Shown: piece by piece, positions 29,901 through 41,900 of the stretch
How positions within the stretch are numbered: position 1 is the stretch's first letter
How the letters are laid out: every line of letters begins with the position of its first letter
NCBI GenBank assembly: GCA_963701855.1
Contig: CAVPBK010000009.1
Coordinates: 256,001-320,000 of the forward strand
Direction: 5' to 3'
Length of the DNA: 64,000 nucleotides
Source: Nitrospirota bacterium
Lineage (GTDB): Bacteria > Nitrospirota > Nitrospiria > Nitrospirales > Nitrospiraceae
Made by a program: the position numbers

Positions 29901-32900
29901 CCCTTGCCTTCGGCTATCAACTCTCTTGCCGTCTGTTCCAGTTCTTGTCGTCCCATATGGATGCCCCCCAATCTCTGGATTCGTTACTCCTCAATCCCCC
30001 CCGACCCAGTCCCTCTTATTTCCGGCAGATCCATCCGAAATATCTAAAAGAGGAAATACCTTATACATCGCTCTAAGTAGTTGCAACGGTAAATTTTTTG
30101 TAAATTTCCCGTCCTGTTCAGCTCGTCAAGCAAGAGCCTTGCCGTAAATACGTAGCGGGAATGAGTACGCTCTTTTCCTCAGAAACTTTAACTTTTCCAG
30201 AAGTTCAGAAGGGGACAGGCTTCAGATGGAAGGAGGTCCATGGGGAGAAACGCAACAAGCCGCAAGGGGAGTTGTCCTCATTCTCCTCACCCGGGAAAGA
30301 CTTAGCCGCTTCCAGGTTCAGCGTGGGTTCAGATCGATTCCGCCGCACCGAAAGTCGATTGCCGTCTTGAGTTTTCCCGTGTTGCGGAACCAGCAGGCCA
30401 TGCTCTTGATCTTCTGGATCTTACTGTTGAGCCCCTCGCTCACCGCGTTGGTCACCGGATGTTGCCCCCACAATGTACGCCTTGTTCATCGCGTAGGCAT
30501 ACTGAAGCCGCGGCTGCAGCTTGAAGATGCAGGAGTTTGGCCCGTTGTAAACCGCAGGTTGGAGATTCAATTCCTTTCGCCGGCTCCACACAGTTGAACC
30601 TCCAACCTAGGGGTTTCGAAGGGGATGTGTCCCCTTCGTGGGGAGTATGCGAGGGGGCTGCCCCCTTCGCAAGAGCCGATGAGGCAAGTTTCAGAGCCGA
30701 CCCGGCGATGGTTGGATGGTTCGATTCCTCCCGCCAGCTCCAGACTACTCGCTGACATCCCAACCGATTCGGAATCGTCCTCTCCGCTGCTCCGGAGTTT
30801 TGGATACGATCCAGGCCTGTCAGTATACCTTCAGGCCTTCCGCGGCAAATTGAGCGCACACGCGTTGAACCAGTTCATGAGTAGGGGGCTCTGTATTTTG
30901 GAGAGTGTAGTTGAGGCCAAGTTCCTTCCATTTGAATCGGCCCAGCTGATGAAAAGGCAGGACGTCGACGCGCTCGATATTCCCCAGACCGGCCGCGAAC
31001 TTGGCGATATGCGAAACGTCCTGCGGGTCGTCGGTTAATGCCGGCACCAGGACAAAGCGGAGCCAGCAAGGCCGTTTGCGGGCAGCCAGCCGGCGCGCGA
31101 ATTCAAGTACAGGGCCGACATCTTTACCGGTCAGATGTCGATGGCGTTCTGCATCCCACGTCTTAATATCGAGCAGCACGAGGTTGATCTTCTCCAACTC
31201 GCCGTCACTGAGGCGATCGCCGAGAAAGCCGTTGGTGTCCAACGCAGTGTGGACCCCCATTTCCTGCGCGGCGGCAAATAACCTGACGACAAACCGGTCC
31301 TGCATCAGTGGCTCGCCACCGCTGATGGTGAGTCCCCCGGACATCACCTTCAGTCCGTGCCGATATTTTCGAAGCTCCTCGATCGCGCGTGAGAGGGGGA
31401 CGGGCGTGCCATTCGTCAGGCTCCATGTATCTGGATTGTGGCAATACAGACATCGGAACTGGCAACCAGACAGCCATGCGACGACACGCATTCCGGGTCC
31501 ATCGACGGCCGATCCAGTGGTAAATGAATGAATGAAGCCGATGTCTCCGCTCTCGAGCGCTTGTTTGATGACCGACTCGGATACTTTGCTACCTTTGTTC
31601 ACCCGGAGCTCGAACGGGCTTTTTGCCTCGAGCAGACTCATTTATCATTTCCGGTGCCATGGCTTGTTACCTCCCGCCGTAGCAGTGATTGTAATCCGTT
31701 CCGCCTTGGCGCAAACCCGCGCAGAGCGCAATCAACCCCACGATGCCGACATGCCATTGACGGCATAGGCTTTCTCCACTCTCAACGACGATTTTAAAAC
31801 CAAGAGCCCCAGTTCTCGTGTTTGCCTGCAAAAGTTTACGAGCACGCCCGTCATGACCCATGGAATGTGCGATTGATGACATCCAGTTGTTGCTCCCGCG
31901 AGAGGCGCACGAAGTTGACGGCATAGCCCGAGACCCGAATCGTCAAGGACGGATATTTCTCTGGATGATCCATGGCATCAAGCAGGGTTTCACGGTTCAG
32001 TACGTTCACGTTCATGTGATACCCCGTAGCACCAAAAAACGCGTCGAGTATGCCACGTAGGTTCTTGATTCTATCCTCTTCGATCCTCCCAAGGCCCTCC
32101 GGCAGTAACGTTGTCGTGAGTGAAATGCCGTCAGCGGCGTCGCGGTATGGAATTTTGGCCACCGAAGCAGCCGATGCATGAACGCCGTGCTTGTCGCGTC
32201 CGTGCATCGGATTGGCGCCTGGAGCGAACGGCTGCCCCTTCCTCCGCCCATCCGGGGTGTTGCCGGTATTCTTTCCGTAGACAACATTTGACGTGATGGT
32301 CAGGATCGATTGTGTGTGCAGGGCATGTCGATAGGTCGGATATTTCCTCAGCTTCTTCATGAACGTACTGACAACCCAGGTCGCCATCTGGTCGACGCGG
32401 TTGTCGTTATTTCCAAACTGCGGGAACTCGCCTTCGGTTTGATAGTCGGTAATCAGGCCCGTTTGATCGCGGATCACGCGGACCTTGGCATATCGGATAG
32501 CGGAGAGGCTATCGGCAACCACCGACAGACCTGCCATACCAAACGCCATAGTTCGCAACGGTGCATAATCGTGGAGGGCCATTTCAATCCGCTCATATGC
32601 ATATTTGTCGTGCATGTAGTGGATGATATTCATGGCATTGACGTAGACCCCGGCGAGCCAGTCCATCATCGTCTCGAAGCGATCGATCATGTCCTCGATA
32701 TCGAGGTACTCGCCCTTGACTGGCTCGGTTGCCGGACCCACCTGCTTGCCGGTGAGTTCATCGCGGCCACCATTGATCGAGTACAAGAGGCATTTTGCCA
32801 TATTGGCTCGAGCGCCGAAGAACTGCATTTGTTTGCCGACCAGCATCGGAGAGACACAGCAGGCGATGGCGCCGTCATCCCCCCAGGTACTTCGCATAAT

Positions 32901-38900: not shown

Positions 38901-41900
38901 GAGGGACCAGGCCCGACTTTGTAGAATTCGTCCAGCGTCGTCATCACCGGCCCCTTTTTCTCCTTCACGACGTTCAGATCGTTTGAGAGCGGCGGCGGCG
39001 GCCCTGCAGTGGACCGCTTTGTTCTCTCCTCAGCGCTGACCGGTTGACCCAGTATCACCGCAGTTGCGCCGATCAACGCGCTTCGCATTAAGAAAGTGCG
39101 ACGATCGACACCAGGCGGGATTTCTTGCGAAATCAACCGGTCCGCGCGGCCAAGCGGGCCTTCCTGGCCGGCCTCATGTGTGTGTTCTTCCGAATTGAGA
39201 TCACCAGCCTCGTGTCTTTTCTTTGTTCCTCATGTCGTCCCTCCTTCGTTTGAAGCAATGTAATCTCGTTCGTCAAACTCGTCGACTACCGTGATGAGCG
39301 CAGCCGCCGTTGTTGTGAGCACGGCGCATGTGCGACGCCGGTTCACGGCCGACAAAAGGTCACCAATTCCCCAGATTCACGAGGTCGTACTGCAAGACGA
39401 AGTTAAGCCGGATGTCGTCCCCTCGCTCCCCGGTTTTCACCGTATGTTGCCCCCACAAGAGTCCGCCCCCGACCGTGAATCCTGCACCAGGACTGTACAT
39501 CAGATTGCCTTCCGCATACTGGGTGCTCGTGAAGTTACTGTTCGAGTTGAGGGTTACCGTAGGAGACGCGATGTTCGTCGTACTGACATGCAAATATCCA
39601 TAGGTGAATGACGAGCGCCATCGTTCAGCCCAAAAATGCTGATACGAACCAAACGCTCCCCATGCCGGCAGAGCGACAATCGTCCCGTCCGGCTTGACGC
39701 CGACGTCTAGGCCGGTCCCCTCCCCGAGGTCGTTTATGTACCGGGCAATCCCGTCCCCGATGATGCCTTGGACCATGACGTTGTCTTTCTTATAGACCGT
39801 CGCGGCAGCCGACACCATGCCGCCCCATCCGAAGACATGTTTATCAGTCCCCGGAGTGACAAAGCCGCCCAGGTCGCGGAACAACCAGGCATTCTGAATG
39901 TGGAATCGGCTCTGCTCATGGCGGTATCGAAGGACAAAGTCAGGGATCGGGTTGTTTACATTGATGGCTGTGGTTCCACTCGTGACGGTCCCTGGCATTT
40001 GCGTGTTCGGTTGCTCGACAGACACCGCAATATTGTTCTCCTTGTTCATCGCGTAGGTATACCGGACCTGCGGTTGCAGTCTGAAGATCCAGGAGTTCGG
40101 TCCTTCGAAGTCCACCGTGTCCGGAATGGCATCCTGGTCTCCCCAGGCAGTCCAGGTCTGTCCGACGAGTACATTCTGCCATTGACCATAAAAATGGCGC
40201 AGCCGGAAGCTGTTCGTCGTATTCGGGCCGTTGTTGAAGTCGTTCTCATAATAGATGCGCAGGGGGCCGTAATTCGTGTTGTTCCTGATTTCGAAGCTGA
40301 TTCTCGACGGAGCCACACTCATGCTGGTGTTGTCGCTTCCCGGATTGGGACCGGTTGGAATCGATGAGGTCACAAATTTGGACGTATTGCCGGCTGGGCT
40401 GAAATCATGAATCACGTCCGTCCTCGCGAACCCCCCGAGCCGCAACATGGTCTCGGTTCCAGGCAGGCGAAAGAATCCCCTGAGTTGAGGATCGAACGGT
40501 GCATTGTCAAGCCGCGGATCGGCGTAGTTGTCTTGGCGCAGCATCCCGCGCTCGCGTTCATGCTCGGGAACTTCGGCGCTCGTACCCGGCGTCGGACGCT
40601 GGTATCCCTCCTCACGGTTGACGTTGCTCTCGCCAACCTTAGGTGAGCCGCGATCTTTCTTCAGTTCCTCCACCATCTGTTCGAGAGACTTCACCCGTTC
40701 TTTTAACGATTCATCCGACGCCGCTGATGGCGCTGGGCCTTGTCCCGGTTTACCCTGATCTTGGGCCACGGAAAAGGTCGGACACAACAGAACAAGAATT
40801 GAGGCGATCGCGAGAATCGTCCGGACTATCGAGGACACGGGACGCCTTCGTGCGTCGGACGGACAGGTTTCGACCATCTCCTTGTTGGTTAGTTGTGATC
40901 TTCTCATGGCAATTCTCCTTGTCGTTGAGGTCACTGCCCACTGTCTGCCGCAGCCTTGCATGGCTGAATGGGAAAGGATCCCTTGAATCGCAGATCGAGC
41001 GGTGTCTTGTCTGGTCTCGGCTCAGCATGGGGGTCCTGCCGGAGCATCATCTCAGGAACGAGTCCGAGGACACGGTCAATCGTGGCATTAGGCTCATCGT
41101 CACGATAAGCACCCTAGTTCTAGGCTTGGTCACGGCCTCAGCCAGTCAAAGGAATCTGAGCGGCCAGAAATTCTTGGCCTCCGCGTCGGTGAGAATCCTA
41201 TTGGCGGCGACGATGAGCTTCTTGTCGGCTTTGATTTTCTCTTTCAGAATGTCCATGTTCATCTGCTCAGCCTGCTGAGCATGAACCGGCCCTAGAATGA
41301 GAAACGACAGCATGAGCATCCCGATCTGCAGAATCATCATGATACGTTCTCCTCCCTTGGTTAATTCACGACCGGCCATAGACATATCTCGACGGTAGCT
41401 ACGCCTACAACACCGGCTTAATCTCGACGAATGGGGTGACCTCTTTCACCCCTTCGGTGGCGCGGATGATGCGCAGGACGCTCTGCCGCTCATCCTCGCT
41501 CCGAGACCGGCCGATGAGGTACACGACGTTCCGGACCGACCGCCACCGGTAGTTGACCGAGTTGATACCGCGAGTCGAGATCAACTGCGCGTTGATCTTC
41601 GTTTCGATCCAAAAATCGTTGACGGTCTGTTCGACGCCGCTTTTCTGGGAAGCGTCCTTGTTCTTGGCCGCCTCCCGCCGCTGTTCCTGCTCCGCCTTGG
41701 ACACAAGCTGGATCTCGTCGTAGATCTTTCGTATGCGGGGATCCGACTGCTGGACTAGTTGGACCACGTCCTTCTTCATCTTGGCATCGTCGAGCGTGCC
41801 AGTCAGCATCACCCGCTGCTCCCAGACGTCCGTCTTGACGTCGAGCAGCAGACTTTTATCCTTGTCAGCCAGGGCGGAGAGGATACCGGTGTCGATCTTC

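What a model noticed while it worked through the whole genome (the two positions that open the first line are those of the whole stretch)
30820..39088. Laterally shared serine-to-acetate fermentation cassette (sdaA-MFS-pta-ackA-pflB-pflA) in a comammox Nitrospira
This complete-ammonia-oxidiser genome carries an 8.3-kb same-strand cassette for L-serine dehydratase, an MFS transporter, phosphate acetyltransferase, acetate kinase, a glycyl-radical pyruvate formate-lyase and its radical-SAM activase. Together they would turn serine into NH3, formate, acetate and ATP without oxygen; ammonia and formate are this organism's own aerobic substrates (amoCAB C5:107190-110264; formate dehydrogenase and FocA C1:84202-89406). 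The cassette is not found in the 84 other genomes of the genus and occurs at 82-94% protein identity in only 2 of 370 other Nitrospiraceae, of two other genera, so it moves laterally. It sits right beside the family's own glycogen-to-acetate [...]
Evidence so far: Tables: g03440 SDH_alpha/beta (42% to E. coli TdcG), g03439 MFS_1, g03438 PTA_PTB (66% to S. meliloti Pta), g03436/37 acetate kinase, g03435 PFL-like+Gly_radical (NCBIfam formate C-acetyltransferase; 62% to Staphylococcus PflB), g03433 PFL activase. PflB keeps CCVS (420) and the glycyl-radical motif RVSGY (728); the activase keeps CxxxCxxC. Whole-genome protein search: PflB in 2 of 370 other Nitrospiraceae, 0 of 84 in the genus, both 94% identical; in a sample of 400 Nitrospirota 4 further genomes of one distant family at 55-58%. 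tblastn: all six genes in the same order in both genomes, flanks differ. C9 is 522 kb with core genes on both sides; cassette G+C 0.54-0.61 as the genome. Nearest P [...]
(Added by a program. Inside this text positions count along the whole contig: contig position 256,001 is position 1 of the stretch shown here. "Call 12" and the like, gene names such as g00115 and contig names such as C1 are that model's own, and its searches are not shown. The text may have been shortened before it was handed on; [...] marks where a part breaks off. The agent that wrote the report below was given it as the finding of a first reader that could run no searches.)

Follow-up and report, generated by a model that had tools for sequence, protein, structure and literature searches.

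The report
Acquired serine-fermentation island in comammox Nitrospira
A soil nitrifier that normally lives by oxidising ammonia with oxygen has picked up, from other soil bacteria, a gene island that could let it make ATP without oxygen by turning serine into acetate, formate and ammonia, with the first enzyme apparently exported out of the cytoplasm.

Summary
On the minus strand lie sdaA, an MFS carrier, pta, ackA, pflB and pflA, with catalytic motifs intact. PflB is in 0 of 84 other genomes of the genus and at 94% in 2 of 370 of the family.

New here:
- **Insertion size.** It is 12.8 kb (window 30304-43087), not 8.3 kb. Four close relatives have an empty site. It also carries a DcaP-like porin and a BON lipoprotein.
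- **Origin.** The same six-gene operon occurs in soil Pyrinomonadaceae MAGs, and the Nitrospiraceae copies nest among them. The two halves of the operon give conflicting trees, so copies recombine.
- **Export signal.** SdaA carries a conserved twin-arginine signal in all 11 copies examined. Serine is therefore probably deaminated in the periplasm and pyruvate imported.
- **Damage.** ackA and the conserved sdaA start each carry a +1 insertion specific to this genome. Whether these are real or assembly errors is unresolved. A native ackA lies 5 kb away.

Function is inferred from homology only.

The parts
30304..43087 (.). Inserted island, 12,784 bp, between the upstream region of fba and an atpG-like gene
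   Evidence: G017, G020 and G076 align up to window 30303/30304 and resume at 43088, with 30, 44 and about 80 bp between. G068 aligns to 29957 and resumes at 43087, with 355 bp between.
30434..30543 (-). Remnant of a porin gene downstream of pflA
   Evidence: Direct repeats to 39419-39458 and 40025-40103 inside the porin gene. tblastn of the porin gives 15 of 23 identities, E 2e-8.
30820..31641 (-). pflA, the radical-SAM activase of pyruvate formate-lyase
   Evidence: TIGR02493 288.5 bits, cut-off 231.75. CQFRCLYC motif. A 5-nt deletion specific to G000 lies at codon 4, and an in-frame ATG is kept.
31851..34118 (-). pflB, the glycyl-radical pyruvate formate-lyase
   Evidence: TIGR01255 1135.5 bits, cut-off 994.2. 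Aligns to E. coli PFL 1H16 over residues 14-753, with the CC pair and RVSGY conserved.
34135..35314 (-). ackA, broken by a +1 insertion at about 35149-35155
   Evidence: The GTG at 35314 aligns to the ATG of relatives. G000 reads CCGCTTGG where L184 and L200 read CTG-TTGG. All six relatives compared lack the extra base (G128, G181, L180, L184, L185, L200). dN/dS of the C-terminal piece against G128 is 0.10.
35324..36256 (-). pta, a short PTA_PTB-type phosphate acetyltransferase
   Evidence: NF008852 518.4 bits, cut-off 413. It is the only copy in the genome by tblastn with this protein.
36260..37558 (-). MFS carrier of unknown substrate; pyruvate uptake is proposed
   Evidence: MFS_1 129.4 bits. 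Best NCBIfam hit is the D-galactonate transporter subfamily at 62 bits, below its cut-off. Linked to sdaA in every copy examined. The fold search does not discriminate between MFS families.
37586..39233 (-). sdaA, a single-chain 4Fe-4S L-serine dehydratase with an N-terminal extension
   Evidence: TIGR00720 415.2 bits, cut-off 345.1. Aligns to Legionella 4RQO with four cysteines aligned, including the C-terminal one. The conserved ATG at 39233 is put out of frame by a +1 insertion at about 39211. The TTG at 39136 is in frame.
39032..39136 (-). Twin-arginine (Tat) signal peptide of SdaA: GVDRRTFLMRSALIGATAVILGQPVSA/EE
   Evidence: Translation. TIGR01409 scores 17.3 bits, cut-off 16.7. The RR motif is kept in 11 of 11 copies examined and in the cluster representative P0122.
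39360..40961 (-). DcaP/Porin_2-like outer-membrane porin
   Evidence: DcaP 51 bits, Porin_2 50.6 bits. A porin lies beside sdaA in G181, L185 and L186 as well. DcaP-like porins also sit beside the operon in L013 and L014.
41405..42070 (-). BON-domain protein with a lipoprotein-type N-terminus
   Evidence: BON 62.8 bits. The N-terminus reads ...VLGATGC. No match at E <= 1e-15 in 84 other genomes of the genus.
42078..42232 (.). MITE-like repeat with 17-nt inverted ends
   Evidence: Its core has dozens of copies in G000: 63 blastn rows for window 42060-42250, the query itself included.
42820..43006 (.). MITE-like repeat of 187 bp with 20-nt inverted ends
   Evidence: About 20 copies in G000. Copies at 88-93% identity occur across the genus.

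Best explanation
A clade-B-type comammox Nitrospira acquired a 12.8-kb island. Its core is a six-gene operon of a kind common in soil Acidobacteriota: Tat-signal SdaA, an MFS carrier, Pta, AckA, PflB and PflA. A DcaP-like porin and a BON lipoprotein accompany it.

Proposed working, without oxygen:
1. Serine crosses the outer membrane (inferred; the porin is a candidate route).
2. The exported iron-sulfur dehydratase deaminates it in the periplasm to pyruvate and ammonium (inferred from the conserved Tat signal).
3. The MFS carrier takes pyruvate up (inferred).
4. PflA-activated PflB splits it into acetyl-CoA and formate.
5. Pta and an acetate kinase give acetate plus one ATP.

The route is redox-neutral and needs no electron sink. 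Steps 4 and 5 rest on strong homology with motifs present. Steps 1 to 3 are inferred.

Formate and ammonia are substrates the same genome can oxidise once oxygen returns, through FDH/FocA and amoCAB. The same PFL-Pta-Ack branch could also dispose of pyruvate from the adjacent glycogen and phosphoketolase genes.
For: **Gene identities and motifs.**

**Operon packing.** Gaps between successive genes are 27, 3, 9 and 16 bp from sdaA to pflB, and 209 bp before pflA.

**Purifying selection.** dN/dS is 0.06-0.19 for all cassette genes between the three Nitrospiraceae copies.

**Insertion.**
- Empty sites in G076, G017, G020 and G068. Flank identity to G000 is 82-94% in the left flank and 86-88% in the right for G076, G017 and G068; for G020 it is 92% left and 70-81% right.
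- Absent from the other 84 genomes of the genus for pflB, pta, sdaA and BON.
- In G128 the operon splits the rsmG-mnmG pair. Metagenome contigs L183 and L181 show the same site.

**Origin.**
- The same gene order is found in 4 of 80 PflB loci from public genomes: Pyrinomonadaceae/Acidobacteriota L013, L018 and L045, and L016. Parts of it are found in 3 more, cut by contig ends.
- The three Nitrospiraceae copies form a clade (100) nested in an 11-row clade (99).
- They are sister to Pyrinomonadaceae L013 in both halves of the operon, support 99-100.
- Cassette dS is 0.23-0.78. Core gyrB dS between G000 and G181 is 1.86. mnmG is only 73-74% identical, with saturated dS, in all three pairs.
- The two halves give conflicting trees. 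AU tests reject the alternatives at p 0.013, 0.009, 1.3e-6 and 1.9e-7.

**Export.**
- The RRxF[LM] motif, a hydrophobic stretch and a VSA cleavage-type site, present in 11 of 11 copies.
- TIGR01409 is above its cut-off in G000 and L013, and 0.7 bits below it in G128.
- The genome has two TatC genes.
- A porin sits beside the operon in five lineages.

**Downstream use of the products.** FDH and FocA; amoCAB.

**Back-up kinase.** An intact native ackA at 27616-28866.
Against: - Function rests on homology only.
- ackA is frameshifted at codon ~55 as assembled.
- The conserved sdaA start is out of frame. Translation would need the TTG at 39136, which has no clear ribosome-binding site.
- The substrate of the MFS carrier is unknown. 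Family scans, the Atlas name ('MFSD1 family') and the fold search do not single out a monocarboxylate carrier.
- No exported iron-sulfur serine dehydratase has been characterised, and the cluster is oxygen-labile (established knowledge of the family).
- No FNR-type box at up to 2 mismatches lies in the regulatory gaps.
- No integrase, tRNA or target duplication marks the island.
- Only 1 of 85 genomes of the genus has it, so it says little about comammox bacteria in general.
Confidence: 0.6

Rival explanations
1. The MFS carrier imports serine, and SdaA works in the cytoplasm. The N-terminal extension is not an export signal, or is not used.
For: All characterised SdaA/TdcG enzymes are cytoplasmic (established knowledge). 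TIGR01409 is only marginally above its cut-off, 17.3 against 16.7 bits.
Against: The RR motif, hydrophobic core and cleavage-type site are conserved in 11 of 11 copies across lineages labelled as several phyla and in the cluster representative. The extension is under the same frame constraint as the enzyme. An in-frame TTG upstream of the RR motif exists in G000.
Confidence: 0.2
2. The main role is endogenous. PFL-Pta-Ack disposes of pyruvate from stored glycogen during anoxia, and SdaA with the carrier is an accessory entry point.
For: The island sits directly beside glgP, pgm, malQ, pgi, tkt, xfp and ackA. In metagenome contigs L185 and L186 the porin-operon unit again lies next to homologues of malQ, pgm, pgi and 6PGL. 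In G181 it lies next to a GH63-like gene homologous to window 7539-10274. A clade-A comammox MAG with pta and ackA was proposed to ferment via POR, with an unsolved electron sink (PMC7078480, passages read). PFL would remove that problem.
Against: sdaA and the carrier are the most tightly linked partners of the operon in all lineages, including those with no glycogen genes nearby (L013, L016, L018, L045). Glycolysis to pyruvate yields NADH, and PFL provides no sink for it.
Confidence: 0.35
3. The cassette is a decaying passenger in this genome. The +1 insertions in ackA and at the sdaA start are real, and the pathway is no longer used.
For: Both insertions are specific to G000 and lie outside long homopolymers. 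Four of the five frame-changing indels specific to G000 lie within about 10 codons of a gene end, as real filtered mutations would. This suggests the assembly is not scattering random errors here.
Against: pflA, pflB, pta, the MFS carrier and the SdaA body are intact. A native ackA can replace the broken one. An in-frame start keeps the signal peptide. The same assembly has a patch of 8 indels in 400 bp of fba, next to 3.7 kb with none. Sister long-read assemblies break even gyrB (G181), which points to patchy assembly errors.
Confidence: 0.25
4. Assembly or binning chimera: the island belongs to another organism of the same sample.
For: Both junctions lie within 75-240 bp of repeat elements.
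Against: The island is internal to the contig: the window is positions 256001-320000 of contig C9, a 522,062-bp contig holds the MFS protein, and both flanks are 82-94% identical to relatives. It carries repeat families typical of the genus and a porin 81% identical to that of G068. Related copies sit in two other Nitrospiraceae genomes, and the G128 site recurs in separate metagenome assemblies.
Confidence: 0.05
5. Reverse use: acetate plus formate are assimilated to pyruvate by Ack-Pta and reversed PFL.
For: PFL is reversible in vivo in E. coli (recalled, not checked here). Yang et al. considered reverse Ack-Pta for acetate uptake (PMC7078480).
Against: Serine deamination is practically irreversible and is the first gene of the operon. 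Nitrospira already makes pyruvate from acetyl-CoA by POR (PMC7078480, passages read).
Confidence: 0.07

Closest known systems
Escherichia coli tdcABCDEFG operon (anaerobic threonine/serine degradation); recalled knowledge, not searched here
   Same: One operon joins an amino-acid dehydratase (TdcG is a 4Fe-4S L-serine dehydratase), a carrier, a PFL-type keto-acid formate-lyase (TdcE) and an acyl kinase (TdcD). It yields ATP by substrate-level phosphorylation.
   Different: Here there is no PLP threonine dehydratase. The carrier is an MFS protein, not a TdcC-type one. pta and the activase are inside the operon. The dehydratase carries a Tat signal. A porin accompanies the operon.
E. coli focA-pflB-pflA with pta-ackA (mixed-acid fermentation)
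   Same: PflB aligns over residues 14-753 to E. coli PFL with the catalytic CC pair and the glycyl-radical motif. The PflA activase is adjacent. The Pta-AckA chemistry is the same.
   Different: There is no focA in the operon; FocA is elsewhere, on C1. Pta is the short PTA_PTB type. The pathway is fed from serine by its own dehydratase.
Six-gene sdaA-MFS-pta-ackA-pflB-pflA operon of soil Pyrinomonadaceae/Acidobacteriota MAGs (public records L013, L018, L045). No paper was found on it by the one search made
   Same: Same genes in the same order, 67-86% protein identity (72-86% in the closest, L013), and the Tat signal on SdaA.
   Different: The host here is a chemolithoautotrophic nitrifier. 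The copy is mosaic with other Nitrospiraceae copies and carries two +1 insertions.
Type 2 single-chain 4Fe-4S L-serine dehydratase, Legionella pneumophila (PDB 4RQO)
   Same: E 2.1e-93 over residues 66-516. Four cysteines align, including the C-terminal one.
   Different: An N-terminal extension of about 65 residues carries a Tat signal. The subfamily is at most 48% identical to classical full-length SdaA representatives.
pta-ackA 'homoacetate fermentation' proposed for clade-A comammox MAG LK70 (Yang et al. 2020, PMC7078480; abstract and passages read)
   Same: A comammox Nitrospira with Pta and AckA, and a proposed anaerobic ATP yield from acetyl-CoA.
   Different: That proposal used POR and lacked an electron sink. 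It included no PFL, no serine dehydratase and no carrier. Here PFL makes the route redox-neutral.

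Membership tests
Pyruvate formate-lyase (formate C-acetyltransferase, TIGR01255) | Score above the curated equivalog cut-off | tested here: met
   1135.5 bits against 994.2.
Pyruvate formate-lyase (formate C-acetyltransferase, TIGR01255) | Adjacent catalytic cysteines and the glycyl-radical motif RVSGY | tested here: met
   Aligned to E. coli 1H16...AIACCVSPM... and ...RVSGYAV....
Pyruvate formate-lyase (formate C-acetyltransferase, TIGR01255) | A dedicated radical-SAM activase with CxxxCxxC | tested here: met
   pflA lies next to pflB. TIGR02493 288.5 bits against 231.75. CQFRCLYC motif.
Pyruvate formate-lyase (formate C-acetyltransferase, TIGR01255) | Pyruvate cleavage activity | not testable with these tools
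   Needs an enzyme assay.
4Fe-4S L-serine dehydratase, single-chain (TIGR00720) | Score above the cut-off with both alpha and beta domains | tested here: met
   415.2 bits against 345.1. SDH_beta covers residues 70-218 and SDH_alpha 244-510.
4Fe-4S L-serine dehydratase, single-chain (TIGR00720) | Cluster-binding cysteines and the C-terminal cysteine | tested here: met
   Four cysteines align with those of 4RQO, including the C-terminal one. That these are the cluster ligands is recalled.
4Fe-4S L-serine dehydratase, single-chain (TIGR00720) | Cytoplasmic location, as in all characterised members | tested here: not met
   A conserved Tat signal precedes the enzyme. The location itself is untested.
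Tat-exported proteins (TIGR01409 signal) | Twin-arginine motif, hydrophobic core and cleavage-type site, with a score above the cut-off | tested here: met
   G000 17.3 bits and L013 18.9 bits against 16.7; G128 16.0 bits, just below. The motif is present in 11 of 11 copies.
Tat-exported proteins (TIGR01409 signal) | Tat machinery in the host | tested here: met
   Two TatC genes, 205 and 194 bits.
Tat-exported proteins (TIGR01409 signal) | Actual translocation | not testable with these tools
   Needs reporter fusions or cell fractionation.
Acetate kinase (TIGR00016 / PF00871) | One intact reading frame covering the family profile | tested here: not met
   The C-terminal piece covers profile positions 57-392 of 392. 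The N-terminal 66 codons are in another frame because of a +1 insertion.
Phosphate acetyltransferase (NF008852, PTA_PTB) | Score above the cut-off | tested here: met
   518.4 bits against 413. Butyryl-type models score below their cut-offs.
Laterally acquired genomic island | Empty site in close relatives | tested here: met
   In G017, G020, G076 and G068 the flanks lie 30 to about 355 bp apart.
Laterally acquired genomic island | Gene trees and divergence in conflict with the genome | tested here: met
   The copies nest among Acidobacteriota. Cassette dS is 0.23-0.78 against saturated or 1.86 for core genes.
Laterally acquired genomic island | Integrase, tRNA target or direct-repeat scars | tested here: not met
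   No tRNA in the window. No integrase family among the island ORFs. No duplication at the junctions.
Laterally acquired genomic island | Deviant base composition | tested here: not met
   G+C is 0.54-0.61 inside the island and 0.51-0.64 in the flanks within window 20000-49999.

The most novel reading that the evidence does not exclude
The exported iron-sulfur serine dehydratase makes this island an organic-nitrogen mining device as well as a fermentation module. Ammonia would be released from serine in the periplasm, the compartment that ammonia monooxygenase is thought to face. Under micro-oxic or fluctuating conditions the comammox cell could then feed its own nitrification from amino acids, while importing the pyruvate as carbon or as fermentable substrate. 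More broadly, Tat-exported serine dehydratases with a dedicated pyruvate carrier would be an undescribed periplasmic amino-acid deamination system, shared by many soil phyla.
Probability: 0.12. Interest if true: 0.85.

Novelty: new variant of a known kind. Interest (0 to 1): 0.68.

Why it matters
Comammox Nitrospira, above all the uncultured soil clade B, are treated as aerobic chemolithoautotrophs. Here one carries a complete, laterally acquired, redox-neutral route to ATP without oxygen. Its waste products, ammonia and formate, are the organism's own aerobic fuels. That would help explain how it persists through anoxic spells in soil.

It also gives a concrete answer to the electron-sink problem left open for the pta-ackA fermentation proposed in a wastewater comammox strain (PMC7078480).

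The conserved export signal on the dehydratase points to an uncharacterised periplasmic step, which simple reporter and transport assays could test. The mosaic copies show that this operon is traded actively among soil bacteria, nitrifiers included.

Tried and rejected
- **Read-level check of the frameshifts and junctions.** The look-up of sequencing runs listed 22 runs. Two held half or more of the sampled words, both labelled soil metagenome.
- **FNR-type box** TTGAT-N4-ATCAA at up to 2 mismatches: 26 matches in the window against 21.4 expected, none in the gaps upstream of sdaA or the porin.
- **Promoter and terminator scan of the island:** nothing above the shuffles. One terminator-like hairpin at 30782-30797 lies just past pflA, on the opposite strand to the operon.
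- **Rfam** over 29900-48000: only a chance miRNA hit below its threshold.
- **tRNA scan:** none in the window.
- **Plasmid vehicle:** megablast of the cassette against PLSDB found no record covering more than 6% of it.
- **MFS substrate.** No solved relative by sequence. The Atlas gives only an automatic 'MFSD1 family' name. An AlphaFold model (pLDDT 72, pTM 0.75) matches many MFS families about equally, at E 1e-9 to 1e-7 and 12-19% identity. These include FLVCR2, G6PT, monocarboxylate carriers, DgoT, OxlT and MFSD1, so the search is not decisive.
- **Redundancy as the cause of ackA decay:** rejected as a pattern. G128 keeps both its native and its cassette ackA intact.
- **Earlier notes of this scan:** nothing by place or by words.
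- **Literature.** No paper linking Nitrospira or comammox with pyruvate formate-lyase in their own genomes: by listings only; one search was badly framed and uninformative. None on a Tat-signal serine dehydratase (listings only). None on Pyrinomonadaceae with formate lyase (no hits). The phosphoketolase mention in the preprint 10.64898/2026.08.17.744919 concerns Brocadia, not Nitrospira (passages).

Full report
**What is there**

Between window 30820 and 39136, six genes lie head to tail on the minus strand. Curated family models name them clearly:
- pflA: TIGR02493, 288.5 bits, cut-off 231.75.
- pflB: TIGR01255, 1135.5 bits, cut-off 994.2.
- An acetate kinase in two frames.
- A short PTA_PTB-type phosphate acetyltransferase: NF008852, 518.4 bits, cut-off 413.
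- An MFS carrier.
- A single-chain iron-sulfur L-serine dehydratase: TIGR00720, 415.2 bits, cut-off 345.1.

PflB aligns to E. coli PFL over residues 14-753, with the paired cysteines and RVSGY in place. PflA has CQFRCLYC. SdaA aligns to the Legionella enzyme 4RQO, with four cysteines aligned, including the C-terminal one.

Gaps between the genes are 27, 3, 9 and 16 bp, then 209 bp before pflA, as in an operon.

The host is a comammox Nitrospira. It has amoCAB. Its AmoA is 89-99% identical to Nitrospira and Nitrospiraceae MAG records, one of which is titled 'Rifle_cladeB'. It is 57-61% identical to a second set of Nitrospira records, which I recall as clade A. A FocA-type channel next to an NAD-type formate dehydrogenase is present on C1.

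**Distribution**

| Query | Other genomes of the genus | Family (371, G000 included) |
|---|---|---|
| PflB | 0 of 84 | G128 and G181 at 94%, plus two weak hits to other proteins |
| Pta | 0 of 84 | 12 of 371: G000, G128 93%, G181 90%, eight at 66-68%, one at 47% |
| SdaA | 0 of 84 | 11 of 371: G000, G181 91%, G128 88%, G203 76% with the extension aligned, seven classical ones at 40-41% |

Forty-seven of the 85 genus genomes, G000 included, are at least 90% complete with at most 5% contamination. G128 and G181 lack amoA.

**It is an insertion, and a larger one**

A DNA search with window 25200-44100 shows that the closest relatives join the two flanks directly.
- G017, G020 and G076 align up to 30303/30304 and resume at 43088, with 30, 44 and about 80 unaligned bases between.
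- G068 joins 29957 to 43087, with 355 bp between.

Left-flank identity is 82-94%; right-flank identity is 86-88% for G076, G017 and G068 and 70-81% for G020. The insertion is therefore 12,784 bp, window 30304-43087. One gain in G000 explains this more simply than the same precise loss in several lineages.

Besides the operon, the island holds:
- a DcaP/Porin_2-like porin at 39360-40961;
- a BON-domain lipoprotein at 41405-42070, with no match in the other 84 genomes of the genus;
- a porin remnant at 30434-30543;
- MITE-like repeats of families spread through the genus.

There is no tRNA, integrase or target duplication. G+C does not stand out.

**Where it came from**

A scan of public genomes with PflB kept 80 loci.
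- Four have all six genes in the same order: Pyrinomonadaceae L013 and L018, Acidobacteriota L045, and a MAG labelled cyanobacterium, L016.
- Three more show parts of it, cut by contig ends: L015, L021 and L074.
- Steroidobacteraceae L014 has all six genes, rearranged.
- The remaining 72 have only pflB, with or without pflA; one of them, L059, also has an ackA-like gene beside pflB.

In a PflB tree of 80 rows, the three Nitrospiraceae copies form a clade (100) inside an 11-row clade (99). That clade holds 5 Acidobacteriota, and it lies within a larger set dominated by Actinomycetota. Three of 82 loci were dropped before the tree: one for an internal stop and two for under 85% coverage.

DNA trees of both halves of the operon, rooted on L014, put the Nitrospiraceae clade as sister to Pyrinomonadaceae L013, inside L018, with support 99-100. 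The root is assumed and the taxon labels are the submitters' own. The MFS protein also has relatives at about 80% labelled Tepidisphaeraceae. The donor is therefore best described as a soil clade centred on Pyrinomonadaceae.

**Movement within the family**

The three insertion contexts differ.
- In G128 the operon splits rsmG-parAB from mnmG-mnmE-yidC. Separate metagenome contigs, 97-99% identical to G128, show the same site (L183, L181).
- In G181 it lies between a porin and a GH63-like gene.

All cassette genes are under purifying selection, with dN/dS 0.06-0.19, and their dS is 0.23-0.78. By contrast:
- mnmG is 73-74% identical, with saturated dS, in all three genome pairs.
- gyrB between G000 and G181 has dS 1.86.

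The copies are therefore younger than the genomes that hold them.

The two halves of the operon disagree about who is closest.
- sdaA-MFS-pta groups G000 with G128 (98/99). AU tests reject the alternative groupings at p 0.013 and 0.009.
- pflB-pflA groups G128 with G181 (100/100). AU tests reject the alternatives at p 1.3e-6 and 1.9e-7.

I named these groupings after seeing the dS values, which weakens the tests. Metagenome copies are mosaic too. L200, for example, is 94% identical in SdaA, 80% in the MFS protein and 94% in Pta. L184 is the closest relative of the G000 copy, at 90% DNA identity over 4.9 kb.

**The export signal**

The SdaA reading frame begins about 65 residues before the enzyme domain. 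This extension reads ...GVDRRTFLMRSALIGATAVILGQPVSA/EE. It has a twin-arginine motif, a hydrophobic core and a cleavage-type site, followed by a proline-rich linker.

- The motif is kept in all 8 genomic copies translated: G000, G128, G181, L013, L014, L016, L018 and L045. It is also kept in 3 further metagenome copies aligned as DNA.
- The curated Tat-signal model scores 17.3 bits in G000 and 18.9 in L013, against a cut-off of 16.7. It scores 16.0 in G128.
- The genome has two TatC genes.

In a search of 1.84 billion cluster representatives, the only full-length relative at high identity, P0122 at 75%, aligns from residue 5 and carries the motif. Classical full-length SdaA representatives are 37-48% identical and align from about residue 60-72.

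Earlier notes of this scan on other genomes describe the same signal and the same operon. They are unchecked AI notes. What I tested here agrees with them.

A DcaP-like porin sits beside the operon in G000, G181, L185/L186, L013 and L014.

Together these points suggest the following route: uptake of serine across the outer membrane, periplasmic deamination, and import of pyruvate by the MFS carrier. This is inference. The carrier's substrate could not be read from family scans, the Atlas or a fold search.

**Damage in this copy**

Compared with four relatives (G128, G181, L183, L200), the G000 copy has these private changes:
- A +1 insertion in ackA at about 35149-35155, near codon 55.
- A +1 insertion at about 39211, which puts the conserved sdaA start at 39233 out of frame. 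The TTG at 39136 remains in frame, ten codons before the RR motif.
- Two +1 insertions in the last codons of the MFS gene.
- A 5-nt deletion at codon 4 of pflA, with an ATG kept in frame.
- An in-frame +3 insertion in the SdaA linker.

Four of the five frame-changing events sit at gene ends. That looks like real, filtered mutation rather than random error. By that reasoning the ackA break may also be real.

Other evidence points the other way. The neighbouring fba has 8 private indels within 400 bp, next to 3.7 kb with none. Sister assemblies with few contigs break even gyrB. I could not look at reads. An intact native ackA at 27616-28866 could supply the kinase in either case.

**Mechanism and rivals**

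The chemistry is redox-neutral: serine to pyruvate plus ammonium, then acetyl-CoA plus formate, then acetyl phosphate, then acetate plus ATP. This would solve the electron-sink problem noted for the POR-based fermentation proposed in a clade-A comammox MAG (PMC7078480, abstract and passages read).

A second, non-exclusive reading is that PFL-Pta-Ack serves pyruvate derived from glycogen. The island lies beside glgP, pgm, malQ, pgi, tkt, xfp and ackA. A related copy in L185/L186 again lies beside homologues of such genes.

That neighbouring cluster is itself shared with G181 at dS 0.38-0.53, far below the two core genes tested. It is therefore not simply vertical.

**Novelty**

I found no paper that reports PFL in Nitrospira or comammox genomes (listings only). 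I found none on an exported serine dehydratase (listings only). The library covers open-access papers and preprints only.

I file this as a new variant of a known kind. It is a tdc/pfl-type amino-acid fermentation operon with an exported first enzyme, newly seen in a nitrifier.

Noticed in passing
window 28885-29971: The class I fructose-bisphosphate aldolase next to the island is split into two frames. G000 has 8 private indels between 28920 and 29305 (six +1, one -1, one +3), with dense substitutions around them. The adjacent 3.7 kb of xfp and ackA has none. This is either a low-quality assembly patch or a decaying gene.
   Followed up: partly
window 16810-17895: The phosphoglucose isomerase ORF covers only positions 173-486 of the Pfam profile. 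This is probably another frame break in the glycogen cluster.
   Followed up: no
window 14703-27743 and L097: xfp, glgP and tkt are 96, 89 and 90% identical to those of G181, with dS 0.38-0.53. Core gyrB has dS 1.86 and mnmG is saturated. The glycogen/phosphoketolase cluster therefore also looks laterally shared between genera.
   Followed up: partly
window 42820-43006, 47590-47776 and 42078-42232: MITE-like elements. One is 187 bp with 20-nt inverted ends; it has about 20 copies in G000 and copies at 88-93% identity throughout the genus. The other is about 155 bp with 17-nt inverted ends, and its core has dozens of copies.
   Followed up: partly
window 43191-46457: A lone ATP synthase gamma gene (TIGR01146, 311.7 bits) lies outside any atp operon. 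Two tandem ORFs of no known family follow it; they are 59% identical to each other and have a third copy on C12. A gamma C-terminal fragment lies on C6 and a 29%-identical gamma on C1.
   Followed up: partly
L100:3988-4908 (G000 C5): An IS1595-family transposase gene lies directly beside amoC of the amoCAB cluster.
   Followed up: no
L007 (G128) 4536-17569; L183, L181: In G128 the operon is inserted between rsmG and mnmG, an adjacent pair next to parAB, mnmE and yidC. Metagenome contigs 97-99% identical to G128 show the same site.
   Followed up: yes
L185 1-6700, L186 1-2200: In another metagenome lineage the porin-operon unit lies next to homologues of malQ/pgm, pgi, 6PGL and an ion-channel gene of this window, at 68-77% DNA identity. 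The link between this operon and the carbohydrate-storage genes therefore recurs.
   Followed up: partly
P0128, P0131: More distant SdaA subfamilies, 44-45% identical, also begin with twin-arginine-type leaders (MDRRDF..., MTLRRTFLK...). Exported serine dehydratases may therefore have arisen, or spread, more than once.
   Followed up: no
L096:894-2180 (G000 C1): A pyrophosphate-dependent phosphofructokinase (NF041103, 641 bits) lies next to the FocA and formate dehydrogenase genes.
   Followed up: no
G203:C107:1373-2932: A fourth Nitrospiraceae genome (74% complete, another genus) has a Tat-type SdaA at 76% identity, aligned from residue 5. No PflB match was found in it with this query.
   Followed up: no
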